From Bacteroidia bacterium (lineage in GTDB: Bacteria; Bacteroidota; Bacteroidia; NS11-12g; UBA9320), in contig CBDCFW010000006.1 of NCBI GenBank assembly GCA_965216465.1, positions 416,723 through 480,722 on the forward strand: 64,000 nucleotides of DNA, in the 5' to 3' direction. Position 1 is the stretch's first letter; each line of letters begins with the position of its first letter. This document shows positions 29,062 to 30,799 of this stretch, one piece after another. The notes under the pieces are model-generated. The model saw only the letters and a program-made list of their open reading frames with translations, searched no databases and was not told the origin of the DNA. The position numbers were made by a program, and so were the translations under genes.

Positions 29062-29142
29062 GCCCTTATGGCGGAATGGCATACGCAGCAGTCTTAGAAA
29101 CTGTGGCCGCAAGGCATGTAGGTTCAACTCCTACTAGGGGCA
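29062..29142 (+). tRNA. tRNA-Leu (anticodon TAG), class II
   Basis: Hand-folded cloverleaf: acceptor GCCCTTA/TAGGGGC, anticodon loop CTTAGAA, long variable arm, T-loop GGTTCAACTCC. Confidence 0.75.
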
Positions 29143-29143
29143 C

Positions 29144-29217
29144 TTTGGGATGGTCTAACGGAAGGACGGGTGGTTTTGAGCCACTAAGTGGAGGTTCGAC
29201 CCCTTCTCCCAAAACCA
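29144..29217 (+). tRNA. tRNA-Gln (TTG), U1:A72, encoded CCA
   Basis: Acceptor TTTGGGA/TCCCAAA, loop TTTTGAG, T-arm GGAGGTTCGACCCCTTC, 3' ACCA. Confidence 0.7.
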
Positions 29218-29226
29218 AGTATATAT

Positions 29227-29302
29227 CTAGATGTAGGGGAGTCAGGCTTTTCCCGCTCGCTTTGGACGCGAGAGCACGTTGGTTCGAATCCAGCCATCTA
29301 GA
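29227..29302 (+). tRNA. tRNA-Pro (TGG), enlarged D-loop
   Basis: Acceptor CTAGATG/CATCTAG, anticodon stem CTCGC/GCGAG, loop TTTGGAC, T-arm GTTGGTTCGAATCCAGC. Confidence 0.65.
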
Positions 29303-29304
29303 CT

Positions 29305-29376
29305 GTGACTGTAGTATAACGGCAAATACACCAGGTTGTGACCTTGGTTATGAGAGTTCGATTCTCTCCAGTCACC
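29305..29376 (+). tRNA. tRNA-His (GTG)
   Basis: Acceptor GTGACTG/CAGTCAC with C discriminator, loop TTGTGAC, T-arm GAGAGTTCGATTCTCTC. Confidence 0.7.
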
Positions 29377-29381
29377 AAAAT

Positions 29382-29453
29382 GCTCCTATAGCATAATGGT
29401 TAGTGCAGCAGGTTTTCAACCTGAAGATTAGGGTTCAATTCCCTGTAGGAGTA
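29382..29453 (+). tRNA. tRNA-Glu (TTC)
   Basis: Acceptor GCTCCTA/TAGGAGT, loop TTTTCAA, T-arm TAGGGTTCAATTCCCTG. Confidence 0.7.
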
Positions 29454-29458
29454 CAAAT

Positions 29459-29530
29459 ACAGATGTGGCCGAACGGATAGGCACTCCGCTTCTAACGGAG
29501 CACATAAGGGTTCGAATCCTTTCATCTGTA
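29459..29530 (+). tRNA. tRNA-Arg (TCT)
   Basis: Acceptor ACAGATG/CATCTGT, anticodon stem CTCCG/CGGAG, loop CTTCTAA. Confidence 0.7.
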
Positions 29531-29533
29531 CAT

Positions 29534-29601
29534 GGGCAAGCAAGCAGGATAGAATGAGTCTTCGAAACTCTAGTCGGTAGGTTCGAATCCTACCTTGCTC
29601 A
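29534..29601 (+). tRNA. short (68-nt) atypical tRNA, anticodon loop CTTCGAA (TCG, Arg-like), reduced D-arm
   Basis: Acceptor GGGCAAG/CTTGCTC, T-arm GTAGGTTCGAATCCTAC. Only a 4-bp anticodon stem, and a ~12-nt D region. Confidence 0.45.
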
Positions 29602-29606
29602 CAAAT

Positions 29607-29680
29607 GGGGTAGATACACAAGTGGCTCGCACCTTGCACTTGCAATGCGAGGGTTGTCGGTTCAAGACCGACCTACTCCA
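29607..29680 (+). tRNA. tRNA-Ala (TGC) with G3:U70 identity pair
   Basis: Acceptor GGGGTAG/CTACTCC (G3:T70), loop CTTGCAA, T-arm GTCGGTTCAAGACCGAC. Confidence 0.75.
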
Positions 29681-29686
29681 CAAAAT

Positions 29687-29758
29687 TGAGATGTAGCTCA
29701 GAGGCAGAGCAGTCGGCTGTTAACCGTCAGGACGAGATTTCGAAACTCTCCATCTCAG
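29687..29758 (+). tRNA. tRNA-Asn (GTT), U1:A72
   Basis: Acceptor TGAGATG/CATCTCA, D-arm TAGCTCAGAGGCAGAGC, loop CTGTTAA. Mismatches in the anticodon stem and T-stem. Confidence 0.6.
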
Positions 29759-29764
29759 CAAATC

Positions 29765-29841
29765 GGTTTAGTGTGCTCTACTGGTGTAGGGATTTAGCTT
29801 GTCACGCTTCAAAAACGAGGGTTCGAAACCCTCCTAGACCG
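29765..29841 (+). tRNA. aberrant tRNA-like gene, anticodon loop TTGTCAC (GTC, Asp-like), poor anticodon stem
   Basis: Acceptor GGTTTAG/CTAGACC and T-arm GAGGGTTCGAAACCCTC are clean. The D region contains an extra hairpin CTCTAC-TGGT-GTAGGG, and the anticodon stem has only 3 bp. Confidence 0.4.
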
Positions 29842-29848
29842 CAAATAT

Positions 29849-29922
29849 TCCTCTATAGCTCAGATGGTGGTAGCACTCGGCTTTTAACCGAGGGGTCCTA
29901 GGTTCAAGTCCTAGTGGGGGAA
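29849..29922 (+). tRNA. tRNA-Lys (TTT), U1:A72
   Basis: Acceptor TCCTCTA/TGGGGGA, anticodon stem CTCGG/CCGAG, loop CTTTTAA, T-arm CTAGGTTCAAGTCCTAG. Confidence 0.7.
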
Positions 29923-29930
29923 CATTTTAT

Positions 29931-30007
29931 TGAGTAGTAACCGCCCAGTCTGATATGCTGGAGTTAGGTAATGGTTGTAAATGTTGGTTCGAATCCGACC
30001 TACTCAA
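29931..30007 (+). tRNA. aberrant tRNA-like gene (perfect acceptor and T-arm, no canonical D/anticodon arms); isotype undetermined
   Basis: Acceptor TGAGTAG/CTACTCA, T-arm GTTGGTTCGAATCCGAC. The interior holds a CCAG-N9-CTGG hairpin and no 5-bp/7-nt anticodon arm. Confidence 0.35.
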
Positions 30008-30016
30008 CTTAAATAT

Positions 30017-30093
30017 TGTGGAGTGATTACGATTGGTAAGTAGGCGGTCTCATAAGCCGAGGTATGTGGATTCGATTTCCACCTCCGCAACCA
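30017..30093 (+). tRNA. tRNA-Met (CAT), encoded CCA
   Basis: Acceptor TGTGGAG/CTCCGCA, loop CTCATAA, T-arm GTGGATTCGATTTCCAC, 3' ACCA. Confidence 0.6.
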
Positions 30094-30094
30094 T

Positions 30095-30165
30095 GCGAGT
30101 GAAGCATTTCGGTAATGCACCTGCCTTCCAAGTAGGAGAGCTAGGTTCGACTCCTAGTACTCGCA
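30095..30165 (+). tRNA. tRNA-Gly (TCC)
   Basis: Acceptor GCGAGTG/TACTCGC, anticodon stem CCTGC/GTAGG, loop CTTCCAA, T-arm CTAGGTTCGACTCCTAG. Confidence 0.7.
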
Positions 30166-30170
30166 CTTAT

Positions 30171-30244
30171 TGGCCTTTAGCTTATGCGGTAGAAGCCCCT
30201 CACTCATAATGAGGAGATAGATGGTTCGAATCCATCAAGGCCAA
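30171..30244 (+). tRNA. tRNA with CAT anticodon (Met or Ile2/lysidine), U1:A72
   Basis: Acceptor TGGCCTT/AAGGCCA, D-arm GCTT...AAGC, anticodon stem CCTCA/TGAGG, loop CTCATAA. Confidence 0.7.
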
Positions 30245-30249
30245 CATTT

Positions 30250-30324
30250 AGTTCACTAGCCCAAATGGAAGAGGCAACGGGTTTAAGCCCCGTACAGGTC
30301 TGAGTTCGAATCTCAGGTGAACTA
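30250..30324 (+). tRNA. class-I-shaped tRNA with anticodon TAA (reads UUA, Leu) - atypical short variable arm
   Basis: Acceptor AGTTCAC/GTGAACT, anticodon stem ACGGG/CCCGT, loop TTTAAGC, a 5-6 nt variable region, T-arm CTGAGTTCGAATCTCAG. Confidence 0.55.
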
Positions 30325-30329
30325 CAAAC

Positions 30330-30399
30330 ATACTTCTGGCGATGGCAGCCGTTTGGTCTCCAAAACCAAAAGAACAAGGTTCGATTCCTTGGGAGTATG
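30330..30399 (+). tRNA. tRNA-Trp (CCA), short D-arm
   Basis: Acceptor ATACTTC/GGAGTAT, anticodon stem TTGGT/ACCAA, loop CTCCAAA, T-arm CAAGGTTCGATTCCTTG. Confidence 0.65.
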
Positions 30400-30404
30400 C
30401 ATAA

Positions 30405-30478
30405 GATAGGATGGCTGAGTGGTTTAAAGCGGCAGACTGCAAATCTGTTATTCAGGAGTTCGAATCTCCTTCCTATCT
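30405..30478 (+). tRNA. tRNA-Cys (GCA) with U73 discriminator
   Basis: Acceptor GATAGGA/TCCTATC plus T, anticodon stem GCAGA/TCTGT, loop CTGCAAA, T-arm AGGAGTTCGAATCTCCT. Confidence 0.7.
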
Positions 30479-30483
30479 CACTT

Positions 30484-30556
30484 GCGACTTAAGCTAACCT
30501 GGTGGAAGCATTGGTCTGAAAAACCAAAGGGCGAGGATCGTAACCTCGAAGTCGCA
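30484..30556 (+). tRNA. tRNA-Phe (GAA), unusual T-loop ATCGTAA
   Basis: Acceptor GCGACTT/AAGTCGC, anticodon stem TTGGT/ACCAA, loop CTGAAAA, T-arm CGAGGATCGTAACCTCG. Confidence 0.65.
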
Positions 30557-30562
30557 CAATAT

Positions 30563-30634
30563 GGGTTATGGTAGTGGCATCCAGCCGAGACTGTAAATCT
30601 CTAGCCTTGTAGGGTTCGAATCCCTGCTAACCCA
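30563..30634 (+). tRNA. tRNA with GTA anticodon (Tyr) but short variable arm and irregular D-arm - atypical for bacteria
   Basis: Acceptor GGGTTAT/CTAACCC (one mismatch), anticodon stem GAGA/TCTC, loop CTGTAAA, a 7-nt variable region, T-arm TAGGGTTCGAATCCCTG. Confidence 0.5.
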
Positions 30635-30639
30635 CACAA

Positions 30640-30711
30640 GCTATCTAAGCATTAATGGTGATGCACTGGCCTTGTAAACCAGATAAATAGGTTCGATTCC
30701 TATAGGTAGCT
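30640..30711 (+). tRNA. tRNA-Thr (TGT)
   Basis: Acceptor GCTATCT/AGGTAGC, D-arm GCAT...ATGC, loop CTTGTAA, T-arm ATAGGTTCGATTCCTAT. Confidence 0.6.
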
Positions 30712-30716
30712 CATTT

Positions 30717-30799
30717 GGAAAATAAACCACAAAGGTTGTGGACTCTCCTGCTAAGAGATGTGTTCTGCAAAGATTGAGTTTCGAGTACTCTGTTTTCCG
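30717..30799 (+). tRNA. tRNA-Ser (GCT), class II with G73
   Basis: Acceptor GGAAAAT/GTTTTCC plus G, D-arm CCAC-AAAGGTT-GTGG, loop CTGCTAA, a 15-nt variable arm, T-loop TTCGAGT. Confidence 0.55.

What the first reader, a model, noticed from the sequence alone, without database searches (positions are those of the whole stretch)
29062..30799. Dense 22-gene tRNA array with near-complete, U34-biased anticodon set and several non-canonical tRNAs
The 22 tRNAs are spaced by 1-10 nt and together cover most amino acids. The hand-folded anticodons are TAG, TTG, TGG, GTG, TTC, TCT, TCG, TGC, GTT, GTC, TTT, CAT (twice), TCC, TAA, CCA, GCA, GAA, GTA, TGT and GCT. Many carry U at position 34 and a U1:A72 pair. 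Two look like class-I tRNAs yet have Leu(TAA) and Tyr(GTA) anticodons, whereas bacterial Leu and Tyr tRNAs are class II. One is 68 nt with a reduced D-arm. Two have perfect acceptor and T-arms but no proper anticodon arm. This profile resembles mobile or plasmid tRNA arrays rather than housekeeping bacterial tRNAs.
Basis: partly seen in the sequence, partly recalled or inferred. Interest (0 to 1): 0.8.

Follow-up and report, generated by a model that had tools for sequence, protein, structure and literature searches.

The report
Backup tRNA array inside RNA-repair operon
A real cluster of 22 tRNA genes in a Bacteroidota chromosome is not a stray mobile array: it is the first part of a tRNA-damage response operon (RtcB ligase, Band-7 protein, RlaP end-repair enzyme, tRNA mimics) that shares a regulator binding site with the repair genes, a new variant of two already described ideas.

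Summary
ARAGORN finds 17 at default settings. Eighteen reach the Rfam tRNA threshold. Ala, Trp, Tyr and Ser(GCT) are weak or degenerate.

The array is chromosomal (Bacteroidota) and not on a phage or plasmid. It lies between a divergent WYL-WCX-PhyH regulator gene and YrlA-like tRNA mimics, Band-7, RtcB and RlaP. An invariant palindrome, CTACGCA-N7-TGCGTAG, followed 9 nt later by AATCTTTG, precedes both the array and rtcB. None is expected by chance.

In 117 related loci, 85% carry RtcB, Band-7, Ro or RlaP divergent from the regulator gene. 46% carry co-oriented tRNAs (170 against 7 on the other strand), from 1 to 23 per locus.

Orthologous arrays keep the odd members at 90-95% identity. The short-variable-arm tRNA with a UAA anticodon covaries at 11 of 20 pairs.

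Best reading: a stress-inducible replacement tRNA set co-regulated with tRNA repair. This joins the cyanobacterial L-array/rtcB regulon and the predicted band-7-associated tRNA. It is a new variant of a known kind, of moderate interest.

The parts
27147..28877 (-). Divergent regulator gene: WYL-WCX-PhyH fusion protein, 576 aa
   Evidence: Pfam finds WYL (2.4e-13), WCX (9.6e-10) and PhyH (3.7e-16). A profile of the family hits the DriD and PafBC WYL regulators in the PDB. More than 7000 homologs exist, nearly all from Bacteroidota. In 99 of 117 loci it is divergent from RtcB, Band-7, Ro or RlaP.
28934..28954 (.). Palindrome PAL1, CTACGCAAAAACACTGCGTAG: putative operator of the WYL regulator. 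It lies between the regulator gene and the array.
   Evidence: Two exact copies occur in the window against 0 expected. It is invariant in seven aligned relatives. It occurs in 33 of 88 loci, mostly about 50 bp upstream of the WYL start.
28964..28971 (+). AATCTTTG, a Bacteroidota -7-box-like element 9 nt after PAL1: putative array promoter
   Evidence: It is conserved in the alignment of intergenic regions. The same motif and the same 9-nt spacing occur after PAL2. The match to the Bacteroidota -7 consensus TAnnTTTG rests on my own knowledge.
29019..29044 (+). Leader hairpin just upstream of the first tRNA
   Evidence: It folds at -20.1 kcal/mol with z = -5.8. Compensatory changes occur in L086 and L085.
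29062..29143 (+). tRNA-Leu(TAG), 82 nt, class II
   Evidence: ARAGORN default. Rfam 55.9 bits. 98% identical to the L086 ortholog.
29144..29217 (+). tRNA-Gln(TTG); U1:A72; CCA encoded
   Evidence: Found. Rfam 54.6 bits.
29227..29303 (+). tRNA-Pro(TGG)
   Evidence: ARAGORN default. Rfam 51.0 bits.
29305..29376 (+). tRNA-His(GTG) with T at position -1, so no encoded G-1
   Evidence: ARAGORN default. Rfam 61.4 bits.
29382..29454 (+). tRNA-Glu(TTC)
   Evidence: ARAGORN default. Rfam 66.3 bits.
29459..29531 (+). tRNA-Arg(TCT)
   Evidence: ARAGORN default. Rfam 57.7 bits.
29534..29601 (+). tRNA-Arg(TCG), 68 nt, reduced D arm
   Evidence: Rfam 33.7 bits. ARAGORN does not find it. 95% identical in L086 and L085.
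29607..29681 (+). tRNA-Ala(TGC). G3:U70 is present. The D stem is nearly absent.
   Evidence: ARAGORN default. Rfam only 18.9 bits.
29687..29759 (+). tRNA-Asn(GTT)
   Evidence: ARAGORN default. Rfam 56.5 bits.
29765..29842 (+). tRNA-Asp(GTC), irregular stems
   Evidence: ARAGORN default. Rfam 29.6 bits.
29849..29923 (+). tRNA-Lys(TTT)
   Evidence: ARAGORN default. Rfam 57.9 bits.
29931..30007 (+). Aberrant tRNA X. The acceptor and T arms are perfect. An anticodon-like hairpin with GAT (Ile) sits where the D arm should be.
   Evidence: Rfam 31.3 bits. 90% identical in L086. The hairpin was read from the sequences.
30017..30093 (+). tRNA-Met(CAT) number 1; CCA encoded
   Evidence: Rfam 38.2 bits. 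ARAGORN finds it at 90% or lower of the default threshold.
30095..30166 (+). tRNA-Gly(TCC)
   Evidence: ARAGORN default. Rfam 55.5 bits.
30171..30245 (+). tRNA-Met(CAT) number 2. It has no initiator features.
   Evidence: ARAGORN default. Rfam 60.3 bits.
30250..30325 (+). Class-I-like tRNA with TAA anticodon, G37, A73 and a 6-nt variable loop
   Evidence: ARAGORN default. Rfam 49.0 bits. In five arrays, 11 of 20 pairs covary and 95% of cells are paired, against 26-48% in the slid controls.
30330..30400 (+). tRNA-Trp(CCA), 71 nt, short D arm
   Evidence: ARAGORN default. No Rfam hit at E up to 10.
30405..30479 (+). tRNA-Cys(GCA)
   Evidence: ARAGORN default. Rfam 66.9 bits.
30484..30557 (+). 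tRNA-Phe(GAA) with an atypical T loop, ATCGTAA
   Evidence: ARAGORN default. Rfam 50.7 bits.
30563..30635 (+). Degenerate tRNA-Tyr(GTA), 73 nt. The variable arm is lost and the D arm is poor.
   Evidence: Found only by relaxed ARAGORN. No Rfam tRNA hit. Relatives carry an 82-86 nt class II Tyr gene.
30640..30712 (+). tRNA-Thr(TGT)
   Evidence: ARAGORN default. Rfam 51.1 bits.
30717..30800 (+). Weak tRNA-Ser(GCT), 84 nt
   Evidence: ARAGORN finds it only at 80% of the default threshold. No Rfam hit.
30836..31180 (+). Conserved structured RNA region with two YrlA-like, circularly permuted tRNA-mimic modules. Their cores lie at 30937-31001 and 31045-31159.
   Evidence: The YrlA core scores 35.0 bits and the full-length match 26.7 bits, both below the 69-bit threshold. 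In the alifold consensus 14 of 66 pairs are compensatory. An nhmmer profile hits about 47 other loci, always 300-600 nt upstream of Band-7 on the same strand.
31188..31430 (+). Structured RNA of about 245 nt with a 19-bp closing stem followed by U6
   Evidence: In the alifold consensus 20 of 70 pairs are compensatory across 4 sequences. Sequence homologs occur only in the closest clade.
31455..32546 (+). Band-7/SPFH protein gene, 363 aa from the ATG at 31455
   Evidence: Pfam Band_7, 5.7e-25. Relatives encode 363-aa orthologs.
32559..32592 (+). Intrinsic terminator after Band-7
   Evidence: The hairpin plus U-run folds at -17.1 kcal/mol with z = -3.97.
32621..32641 (.). Palindrome PAL2, CTACGCAGAAATACTGCGTAG. 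AATCTTTG follows 9 nt later at 32651-32658, upstream of rtcB.
   Evidence: Found. A second PAL lies directly upstream of RtcB in many relatives.
32682..33842 (+). RtcB RNA ligase gene
   Evidence: Pfam RtcB, 3.6e-112. PHROG annotated as tRNA splicing ligase, 2.9e-118.
33896..34657 (+). RlaP (PF10127) nucleotidyltransferase gene
   Evidence: Pfam RlaP, 6.2e-71. The biochemistry is described in PMC12776372.
34656..34683 (.). Bidirectional terminator that ends the operon
   Evidence: A 12-bp stem with 9 GC pairs, followed by a T-run.

Best explanation
The 22 genes are an accessory long tRNA array (an 'L-array'). It occupies the tRNA slot of a Bacteroidota RNA-repair operon.

Two transcription units carry the same operator and promoter module, CTACGCA-N7-TGCGTAG followed 9 nt later by AATCTTTG.
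- TU1 holds a leader hairpin, the 22 tRNAs, the YrlA-like tRNA mimics, a 245-nt structured RNA and Band-7.
- TU2 holds RtcB and RlaP.

The divergently encoded WYL-WCX-PhyH protein is a homolog of the ligand-activated WYL transcription factors DriD and PafBC. I infer that it binds the palindrome and switches both units on when RNA is damaged.

The operon would then repair and replace at once. RtcB reseals tRNAs cut to 2',3'-cyclic phosphate and 5'-OH ends. RlaP restores one or two trimmed 3' nucleotides. The array delivers a fresh, near-minimal decoding set with one tRNA per codon box, using U34 or G34. It covers 18 amino acids. Ile is covered only through gene X or a lysidine-modified CAU tRNA, and Val is absent.

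Shown: the genes, their order, the shared palindrome, the conserved synteny and strand bias, and structure-preserving evolution of the tRNAs.

Inferred: binding of the regulator, the inducing signal, co-transcription, aminoacylation, and use of the tRNAs in translation.
For: The array is real.

Operon context:
- Pfam and PHROGs identify WYL-WCX-PhyH, Band_7, RtcB and RlaP.
- Terminators lie after Band-7 and after RlaP.

Shared operator:
- There are two exact copies in 64 kb against 0 expected.
- Both have the same 9-nt spacing to AATCTTTG.
- The palindrome is invariant across relatives whose regulator protein is down to 68% identical.
- It is present upstream of the WYL gene and again upstream of RtcB or Band-7 in many loci.

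Comparative evidence from 117 non-redundant loci:
- 99 have RtcB, Band-7, TROVE or RlaP divergent from the regulator gene.
- 54 have at least one co-oriented tRNA.
- 170 tRNAs are co-oriented and 7 are on the opposite strand.
- Array size runs from 1 to 23. L159 carries 23 tRNAs split around Band-7.

Selection on the tRNAs:
- Window and L086 orthologs are 88-98% identical although the regulator is 73% identical at the protein level.
- Of 16 stem-pair changes, 6 are compensatory, 5 keep pairing through a one-sided change, and 5 break a pair.
- The short Leu(UAA) type covaries at 11 of 20 pairs.

The regulator family matches DriD (8tp8) and PafBC (7p5x).

Literature parallels:
- The Anabaena L-array is induced by translational stress together with rtcB. 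23 of its 26 tRNAs are aminoacylated, and the array aids survival (PMC8421152).
- The Anabaena repressor TrcR controls the array, rtcB and a slipin/Band-7 gene (PMC10272220).
- A band-7-associated tRNA next to RtcB was predicted by Burroughs and Aravind 2016, as cited in bioRxiv 10.1101/312249.
- RlaP adds 1-2 nt to damaged RNA 3' ends and restores aminoacylation of repaired tRNA (PMC12776372).
Against: - There are no expression, binding or charging data for this locus.
- Four to six genes look impaired: Tyr, Ser(GCT), Ala, Trp, Asp and X. His lacks an encoded G-1. Val and Ser(UCN) decoders are missing, so the set cannot translate alone.
- A U6 run after the 245-nt RNA could stop TU1 before Band-7.
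- The promoter call rests on a partial match to the Bacteroidota -7 consensus.
- In Anabaena the operonic tRNAs were themselves cleaved and were dispensable for the recovery of translation. That fits a decoy role at least as well.
- The host genome's other tRNA genes could not be inspected.
Confidence: 0.6

Rival explanations
1. Decoy or sensor array. The tRNAs and tRNA mimics are not made for translation. They serve as sacrificial substrates that soak up anticodon nucleases. Alternatively their fragments are the ligand that the WYL domain senses, which would form a feed-forward RNA-damage alarm.
For: - Many members are non-canonical yet conserved: the 68-nt Arg, X and the short Leu(UAA).
- True tRNA mimics (YrlA-like) lie in the same transcript region.
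- In Anabaena only the operonic tRNAs were seen to be cleaved, and a sponge role was proposed (PMC8421152).
- In Salmonella, tRNA 5' halves ending in cyclic phosphate are the inducing ligand of RtcR (PMC7790460).
- The commonest operon tRNAs across loci are Tyr, Pro, Leu(UAG), Arg, Lys, Asp, Phe and Asn. Several of these are classic nuclease targets. One example is tRNA-Tyr cleavage by the retron-Eco7 effector PtuAB (PMC11555353, abstract). The rest rests on my own knowledge.
Against: - Most members are canonical cloverleaves scoring 49-67 bits. They keep identity elements such as G3:U70 in Ala and C1:G72 in Pro.
- The anticodon set is organised as a decoding set, with one tRNA per codon box.
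- In Anabaena 23 of 26 array tRNAs are aminoacylated.
Confidence: 0.2
2. Hitch-hiking mobile cargo. The array derives from a phage or integrative element and sits here by chance or for its own spread. If it has any role, it is codon supplementation.
For: - The short Leu(UAA) type occurs in large IMG/VR viral arrays, and the window gene's best match (83%) is viral.
- The genomic neighbourhood differs from that of the closest relatives.
- A low-GC island with an IS element, toxins and defence-like genes lies 3-13 kb to the right.
- L-arrays are known to spread by horizontal transfer.
Against: - No integrase, phage structural genes or att-like repeats flank the array.
- There is no homologous array in the phage or plasmid collections.
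- tRNAs recur at the same operon position, in the same orientation, in 54 of 117 loci.
- The operator is shared with rtcB.
- The arrays of the window, L086, L085, L089 and L001 are homologous and are inherited together with the regulator gene.
Confidence: 0.1
3. Ordinary housekeeping tRNA cluster that is the main source of these tRNAs for the cell.
For: The set is nearly complete and sits on the chromosome.
Against: - The locus holds 0-2 tRNAs in most relatives, which must decode all codons.
- Members are degenerate.
- Val, Ser(UCN), a canonical Ile and an initiator tRNA are absent.
- There is no rRNA linkage.
- The promoter is a regulated stress-operon promoter.
Confidence: 0.05
4. Decaying array of pseudogenes with no present function.
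For: Tyr, Ser(GCT), Ala and Trp score poorly. Trp has three broken pairs relative to L086.
Against: - Orthologs are 88-98% identical across genomes whose neighbouring protein is 62-79% identical.
- Compensatory substitutions are present.
- The leader hairpin and the operator are conserved.
Confidence: 0.05

Closest known systems
[quoted passage not shown] PCC 7120 trn operon (Santamaria-Gomez et al. 2021, PMC8421152; TrcR regulon, PMC10272220)
   Same: - A long, dense, co-oriented and non-periodic array covering most amino acids, with some pseudogene-like members.
- Patchy distribution among relatives.
- A functional link with rtcB and a Band-7/slipin gene through a shared regulator site in the promoters.
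   Different: - Here the array is physically inside the repair operon and not unlinked on a megaplasmid.
- The regulator is a WYL-WCX-PhyH protein with a palindromic site, not the RHH repressor TrcR with direct repeats.
- There is no HNH homing endonuclease next to it.
- The host is a Bacteroidota species.
- Induction has not been tested.
[quoted passage not shown]
   Same: RtcB, Band-7 and RlaP occur with a tRNA or tRNA-like gene just upstream of Band-7. YrlA-like RNA can replace or accompany it.
   Different: - The slot holds 22 tRNA genes plus two YrlA-like modules, not one tRNA.
- Across 117 loci the slot ranges from 0 to 23 tRNAs.
- The operator shared by the array and rtcB was, as far as I could find, not described.
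Salmonella rsr-yrlBA-rtcBA operon regulated by RtcR (PMC7790460)
   Same: An RNA-repair operon with RtcB and tRNA-mimicking Y-like RNAs, induced by damaged tRNA.
   Different: - The window has no Ro/Rsr, RtcA or RtcR.
- The regulator domain is WYL, not CARF.
- The YrlA-like modules score below the Rfam threshold and lack a recognisable Ro-binding stem.
Phage tRNA arrays that counter tRNA-cleaving defences (PMC10264068, PMC11555353; jumbo phages pairing tRNAs with RtcB/Rnl and RlaP, PMC7824862)
   Same: The logic of replacing cleaved tRNAs and repairing them with a ligase plus RlaP. The short Leu(UAA)-type tRNA is shared with viral arrays.
   Different: The locus is chromosomal and host-regulated. 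No phage genes are present, and no sequence-similar array exists in the phage collection.

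Membership tests
tRNA genes (Rfam RF00005 / ARAGORN) | Cloverleaf scoring at or above the Rfam gathering score of 29 bits, or detected by ARAGORN at default settings | tested here: met
   18 of 22 genes reach at least 29 bits and 17 of 22 are found by ARAGORN default. Ala scores 18.9 bits. Tyr and Ser are found only by relaxed ARAGORN. Trp is found only by ARAGORN.
L-array (long accessory tRNA array) | Many (10 to more than 40) co-oriented tRNA genes close enough to be co-transcribed | tested here: met
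   22 genes lie on one strand with 0-9 nt spacers.
L-array (long accessory tRNA array) | Non-periodic composition, unlike accretive 'A-arrays' | tested here: met
   Tandem Repeats Finder reports no repeats. Each anticodon occurs once, except CAT.
L-array (long accessory tRNA array) | Patchy distribution among related genomes, indicating gain, loss or horizontal transfer | tested here: met
   The same locus holds 0 to 23 tRNAs across 117 loci. Homologous arrays occur only in the window, L086/L087, L085, L089 and L001/L088.
L-array (long accessory tRNA array) | Supernumerary: duplicates isoacceptors that a dispersed housekeeping set already supplies | not testable with these tools
   The host genome was not retrievable.
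L-array (long accessory tRNA array) | Silent in normal growth and induced under translational stress | not testable with these tools
   This needs expression data. Only the operator shared with rtcB is shown here.
RtcB/Band-7 RNA-repair operon with b7a-tRNA | RtcB ligase gene adjacent to a Band-7/SPFH gene | tested here: met
   Pfam finds RtcB at 3.6e-112 and Band_7 at 5.7e-25. The genes are adjacent and co-oriented.
RtcB/Band-7 RNA-repair operon with b7a-tRNA | tRNA or tRNA-like gene directly upstream of Band-7 | tested here: met
   The array plus tRNA-like hits at 31038-31168 lie upstream of Band-7. The same arrangement recurs in relatives.
RtcB/Band-7 RNA-repair operon with b7a-tRNA | Accessory RlaP nucleotidyltransferase | tested here: met
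   PF10127 at 6.2e-71.
YrlA Y RNA (Rfam RF02553) | Permuted tRNA-like core: T arm, closed acceptor stem, D arm | tested here: met
   30937-31001 aligns to model positions 23-85 at 35 bits. The stems covary.
YrlA Y RNA (Rfam RF02553) | Full model score at or above the gathering score of 69 bits, including the Ro-binding stem | tested here: not met
   The best scores are 35.0 and 26.7 bits. The modules are therefore called YrlA-like, not YrlA.
YrlA Y RNA (Rfam RF02553) | Encoded next to Rsr/Ro60 (TROVE) | tested here: not met
   No TROVE domain was found among the 40 window ORFs scanned with Pfam. TROVE replaces Band-7 in other loci.
Phage- or plasmid-borne tRNA array | Located on a phage, prophage or plasmid | tested here: not met
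   The flanks are Bacteroidota chromosomal genes. PHROGs gives only RtcB and nucleotidyltransferase hits. No array-length match exists in the phage or plasmid collections.
WYL-domain transcription factors (DriD/PafBC type) | WYL and WCX domains homologous to those of DriD and PafBC | tested here: met
   Pfam finds WYL and WCX. The family profile hits 8tp8, 7u02 and 7p5x.
WYL-domain transcription factors (DriD/PafBC type) | N-terminal DNA-binding HTH and binding to a specific operator | tested here: inconclusive
   No Pfam HTH hit was found. JGI names relatives 'YafY' regulators. A conserved palindrome sits in the target promoters, but binding is untested.

The most novel reading that the evidence does not exclude
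The array and the adjacent tRNA mimics form a 'guard tRNA' surveillance layer. In this reading a full panel of tRNA-shaped baits, including conserved non-standard scaffolds (short-arm UAA tRNA, D-armless Arg, X, YrlA-like modules), is produced to intercept incoming tRNases. Their cleavage products are the ligand read by the WYL(-PhyH) regulator. The operon would therefore sense, absorb and repair tRNA attack. Such a bacterial immune-like circuit built from tRNA genes has not been described before.
Probability: 0.2. Interest if true: 0.8.

Novelty: new variant of a known kind. Interest (0 to 1): 0.55.

Why it matters
In cyanobacteria, long accessory tRNA arrays and the RtcB repair system are linked only by co-regulation of unlinked genes. 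A band-7-associated tRNA was only a bioinformatic prediction.

This locus, and more than 50 related Bacteroidota loci, put tRNA genes, tRNA mimics, Band-7, RtcB and RlaP in one operon behind one conserved operator next to one candidate sensor-regulator. That gives a compact, genetically tractable system for three questions:
- whether bacteria answer tRNA-cleaving toxins and translation stress by replacing and repairing tRNAs at once;
- what ligand a WYL domain reads in RNA-damage signalling;
- whether conserved non-standard tRNAs, such as a class-I-like UAA tRNA shared with viral arrays, are charged or act as decoys.

Tried and rejected
- **Host genome.** RtcB and the exact WYL protein are not on record as contigs. 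The cluster look-up gave no name or accession.
- **Intron-containing tRNA-Val.** ARAGORN's intron mode called Val(TAC) at 30889-31096 with a 110-nt intron. I rejected it. The 'intron' is the conserved YrlA-like module, and the ends do not form an acceptor stem.
- **'SeC(TCA)'.** ARAGORN's call at 30884-30969 was rejected as a mis-parse of the same module.
- **Sigma-70 promoter scan.** The count was at the shuffle expectation and the model is not applicable to Bacteroidota.
- **Palindrome in viral contigs.** There were 59 matches. None lies near WYL, RtcB or Band-7 homologs, so they are chance matches.
- **Metagenome scan with the WYL protein.** It found no relative closer than 62%. It was useful only for statistics.
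- **Burroughs and Aravind 2016.** The paper could not be read. It is cited second-hand.
- **PADLOC.** Only generic WYL hits were found for the regulator. There were none for Band-7, RtcB or RlaP.
- **Rfam on ten related loci.** No YrlA hit reached threshold, not even next to TROVE.

Full report

ARAGORN at default settings finds 17 tRNA genes in the 64-kb window. All are on the + strand between 29062 and 30712. Rfam's tRNA model (gathering score 29 bits) scores 14 of them at 49-67 bits. It also scores Asp at 29.6, the 68-nt Arg(TCG) at 33.7, an aberrant gene X (29931-30007) at 31.3, and Met(CAT) number 1 at 38.2 bits. Ala reaches only 18.9 bits. Trp, Tyr and Ser(GCT) have no Rfam tRNA hit.

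Relaxed ARAGORN recovers Met1 and Tyr(GTA) at 90% of the default threshold and Ser(GCT) at 80%. Every listed anticodon is reproduced.

- The Arg(TCG) gene is 68 nt with no real D stem.
- Leu(TAA) is 76 nt with a 6-nt variable loop and a 3-bp D stem.
- Tyr(GTA) is 73 nt, but it is a degraded copy. Relatives carry 82-86 nt class II Tyr genes.
- Only one gene in the interval (X) lacks a normal anticodon arm. It does contain a hairpin, CCAGT-CTGATAT-GCTGG, which presents GAT (Ile) at the position where the D arm should be.

Further details follow.
- CCA is encoded only in Gln and Met1.
- Every gene has N73 followed by C and an A/T-rich spacer.
- His has T at position -1 and not the encoded G-1.
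- There is no tandem periodicity.
- The anticodon set is a one-per-codon-box decoding set with U34 or G34. It covers 18 amino acids.
- Ile is covered only through X or a lysidine-modified CAU tRNA. Val and Ser(UCN) decoders are absent.

**2. What surrounds it?**

The window is a Bacteroidota chromosome, shown by PorP/SprF and CHU_C type IX secretion markers. No phage or plasmid record holds a similar array. Matches are limited to single tRNAs.

Immediately left, and divergent, is a 576-aa WYL-WCX-PhyH protein gene (27147-28877). To the right come, in order:
- a 345-nt conserved structured region (30836-31180);
- a structured RNA of about 245 nt (31188-31430);
- a Band-7/SPFH gene (31455-32546), followed by a terminator;
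- RtcB (32682-33842);
- RlaP (33896-34657), followed by a strong bidirectional terminator at 34656-34683.

The 345-nt region holds two circularly permuted tRNA-mimic modules (T arm, closed acceptor stem, D arm). They match the core of the YrlA Y-RNA-like model at 35.0 and 26.7 bits, below the 69-bit threshold. Of its 66 predicted pairs, 14 are compensatory in four sequences. A sequence profile of the region finds homologs in about 47 other loci, always 300-600 nt upstream of Band-7 on the same strand. The 245-nt RNA has a 19-bp closing stem followed by U6, and 20 of its 70 pairs are compensatory.

**3. A shared operator.**

The palindrome CTACGCA-N7-TGCGTAG occurs exactly twice in the window. 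One copy is at 28934-28954, between the regulator gene and the array. The other is at 32621-32641, upstream of rtcB. None is expected by chance.

In both places AATCTTTG follows after 9 nt. This resembles the Bacteroidota -7 promoter box, a point that rests on my own knowledge.

The palindrome arms are invariant in sequence, rather than covarying, across seven relatives. These include one whose regulator is only about 68% identical. That pattern is expected of a protein-binding site and not of an RNA hairpin.

In 33 of the first 88 loci the palindrome is present. It usually lies about 50 bp upstream of the regulator's start codon, and often a second copy lies directly upstream of RtcB or Band-7.

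A profile of the regulator family hits the WYL transcription factors DriD (8tp8) and PafBC (7p5x) in the PDB. From my own knowledge, both are activators switched on when single-stranded nucleic acid binds the WYL domain. Binding of the window's regulator to the palindrome is an inference.

**4. Comparative evidence.**

Loci were collected around homologs of the regulator from species-representative genomes and from metagenomes. Of 117 non-redundant loci with at least 3 kb upstream:
- 99 have RtcB, Band-7, Ro/TROVE or RlaP on the divergent strand;
- 54 have at least one tRNA in the same orientation as that operon;
- 170 tRNAs are co-oriented and 7 are on the opposite strand.

Counts per locus range from 1 to 23. 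Ten loci carry five or more, and L159 carries 23 split around Band-7. The commonest are Tyr(GTA) in 30 loci, Pro(TGG) in 24, Leu(TAG) in 13 and Arg(ACG) in 12.

The window's array has true orthologs.
- L086/L087 come from JGI metagenomes, with a regulator 73% identical. They hold about 20 tRNAs. The order of the distal half is the same: Met, Leu(TAA), Trp, Cys, Phe, Tyr, Ser(GCT).
- Individual genes are 88-98% identical, including the odd ones: Arg(TCG) 95%, Leu(TAA) 93%, X 90%.
- L089, whose regulator is 62% identical, shares Glu, Asn, His, Leu(TAG) and Pro at 88-96%.
- In eight ortholog pairs, 16 stem-pair changes comprise 6 compensatory changes, 5 one-sided changes that keep pairing, and 5 broken pairs, 3 of them in Trp.

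The short-arm tRNA with a UAA anticodon, G37 and A73 occurs in five arrays. It covaries at 11 of 20 pairs, with 95% of cells paired against 26-48% in the slid controls. The same tRNA type occurs in large viral arrays in IMG/VR, once next to an RtcB homolog.

Most of the array is therefore under selection as structured RNA. A few members (Tyr, Ser, Trp, Ala) look impaired.

**5. Most likely mechanism.**

The array is best read as the replacement arm of a tRNA-damage response. Two units behind the same operator would be switched on together by the WYL regulator.
- TU1 yields the tRNAs, the tRNA mimics and Band-7.
- TU2 yields RtcB, which seals 2',3'-cyclic phosphate and 5'-OH breaks.
- TU2 also yields RlaP, which adds one or two nucleotides to damaged RNA 3' ends and restores aminoacylation of over-trimmed repaired tRNA (PMC12776372).

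The closest experimental precedent is Anabaena.
- Its 26-gene L-array is silent and is induced by ribosome-targeting antibiotics together with rtcB.
- 23 of its 26 tRNAs are charged, and the array improves survival (PMC8421152).
- The repressor TrcR controls the array, rtcB and a slipin/Band-7 gene (PMC10272220).

The same three components are physically fused here.

A band-7-associated tRNA next to RtcB was predicted by Burroughs and Aravind (2016). I could read that work only as cited in bioRxiv 10.1101/312249. In Salmonella, tRNA halves ending in cyclic phosphate induce the rsr-yrlBA-rtcBA operon (PMC7790460).

I put the structural claim (part of the operon, co-regulated) at about 0.8. I put the functional claim (replacement tRNAs for translation) at about 0.5, and the two together at 0.6.

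**6. Rivals.**

- **Decoy or sensor role (0.2).** This fits the conserved non-standard scaffolds, the adjacent mimics, and the Anabaena observation that only operonic tRNAs were cleaved.
- **Hitch-hiking mobile cargo (0.1).** This fits the viral affinity of the short Leu type and the variable neighbourhood. The conserved slot, orientation and operator argue against it.
- **Housekeeping cluster (0.05).** The variable copy number among relatives and the missing decoders argue against it.
- **Pseudogene array (0.05).** Conservation of sequence and structure argues against it.

**7. Novelty and verdict.**

L-arrays, their tie to rtcB, and a tRNA next to Band-7/RtcB are all in the literature. As far as my searches reach, the following are new:
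- a near-complete array sits in the b7a-tRNA slot;
- that slot ranges from 0 to 23 tRNAs across Bacteroidota;
- the candidate regulator is a WYL-WCX-PhyH protein with a palindromic operator shared by the array and rtcB;
- the class-I-like UAA tRNA, the D-armless Arg tRNA and X are conserved members.

This is a new variant of a known kind. It is interesting to tRNA and RNA-repair specialists but not categorically new. Interest: 0.55.

Noticed in passing
window 31188-31430: A structured RNA of about 245 nt lies between the YrlA-like modules and the Band-7 start codon. It has a 19-bp closing stem followed by U6. 20 of 70 pairs covary in four sequences. It matches no Rfam family, and sequence homologs occur only in the closest clade. 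It may be a terminator or attenuator, or a Y-RNA-like stem.
   Followed up: partly
L169, L170, L171, L173, L177, L180, L181 (IMG/VR viral contigs): Short (73-78 nt) 'Leu' tRNAs with UAA anticodons sit in large viral tRNA arrays. Some arrays also hold short Leu tRNAs with UAG or CAA anticodons. L170 has such tRNAs next to an RtcB homolog. Bacterial tRNA-Leu is normally class II.
   Followed up: partly
L086 6166-6248 (also L129 4950, L173 2575): In L086, a Tyr-derived tRNA with anticodon UUA (ochre-suppressor-like) sits behind its own copy of the palindrome promoter, upstream of Band-7. ARAGORN also calls a UUA-anticodon tRNA in L129 and L173. 'Pyl(CTA)' calls occur in L085 and L089.
   Followed up: no
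window 27147-28877 (-): A WYL-WCX regulator fused to a PhyH 2OG-Fe(II) dioxygenase domain. The family has more than 7000 homologs, nearly all from Bacteroidota. The role of the dioxygenase domain is unknown. It could sense a signal or modify RNA.
   Followed up: partly
window 36000-47200: A low-GC (0.32-0.36) island lies to the right of the operon. It holds a zeta-toxin-like gene (37284-37931), a PIN_8 gene (38917-39957), an IS transposase with an rve domain (40351-41325), an AriA/GajA/PtuA-like ABC ATPase (41760-42893) and an RNase H-like protein (46027-47178).
   Followed up: partly
window 61663-63912 (-): Type I restriction enzyme R subunit (ResIII, EcoEI_R_C).
   Followed up: no
L086 1606-4306: In the closest long-array relative, a Multi_ubiq / Prok-E2_E / ThiF / BubE gene set flanks Band-7. 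This resembles a ubiquitin-like defence system.
   Followed up: no
window 29305-29376 and L089 3561-3632: The tRNA-His genes of this array lineage have T at position -1 and so lack the encoded G-1 identity element. The His genes in nine other operon-linked arrays have G at that position.
   Followed up: partly
window 29062-30800: Each of the 22 genes is followed by C74 and then an A/T-rich 3-6 nt spacer, often CAAAT or CAAAAT. This may be a common 3'-processing signal.
   Followed up: no
window 5676-6659 (-) and 7824-8876 (+): A C5 cytosine DNA methylase and a fusion of an AAA-kinase-like domain with a dCMP/cytidine deaminase.
   Followed up: no
window 15232-20337 (+) and 51584-56848 (-): Two very large ORFs of 1701 and 1754 aa. 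Neighbouring ORFs carry CARDB or CHU_C type IX secretion domains. The two large ORFs themselves were not analysed.
   Followed up: no
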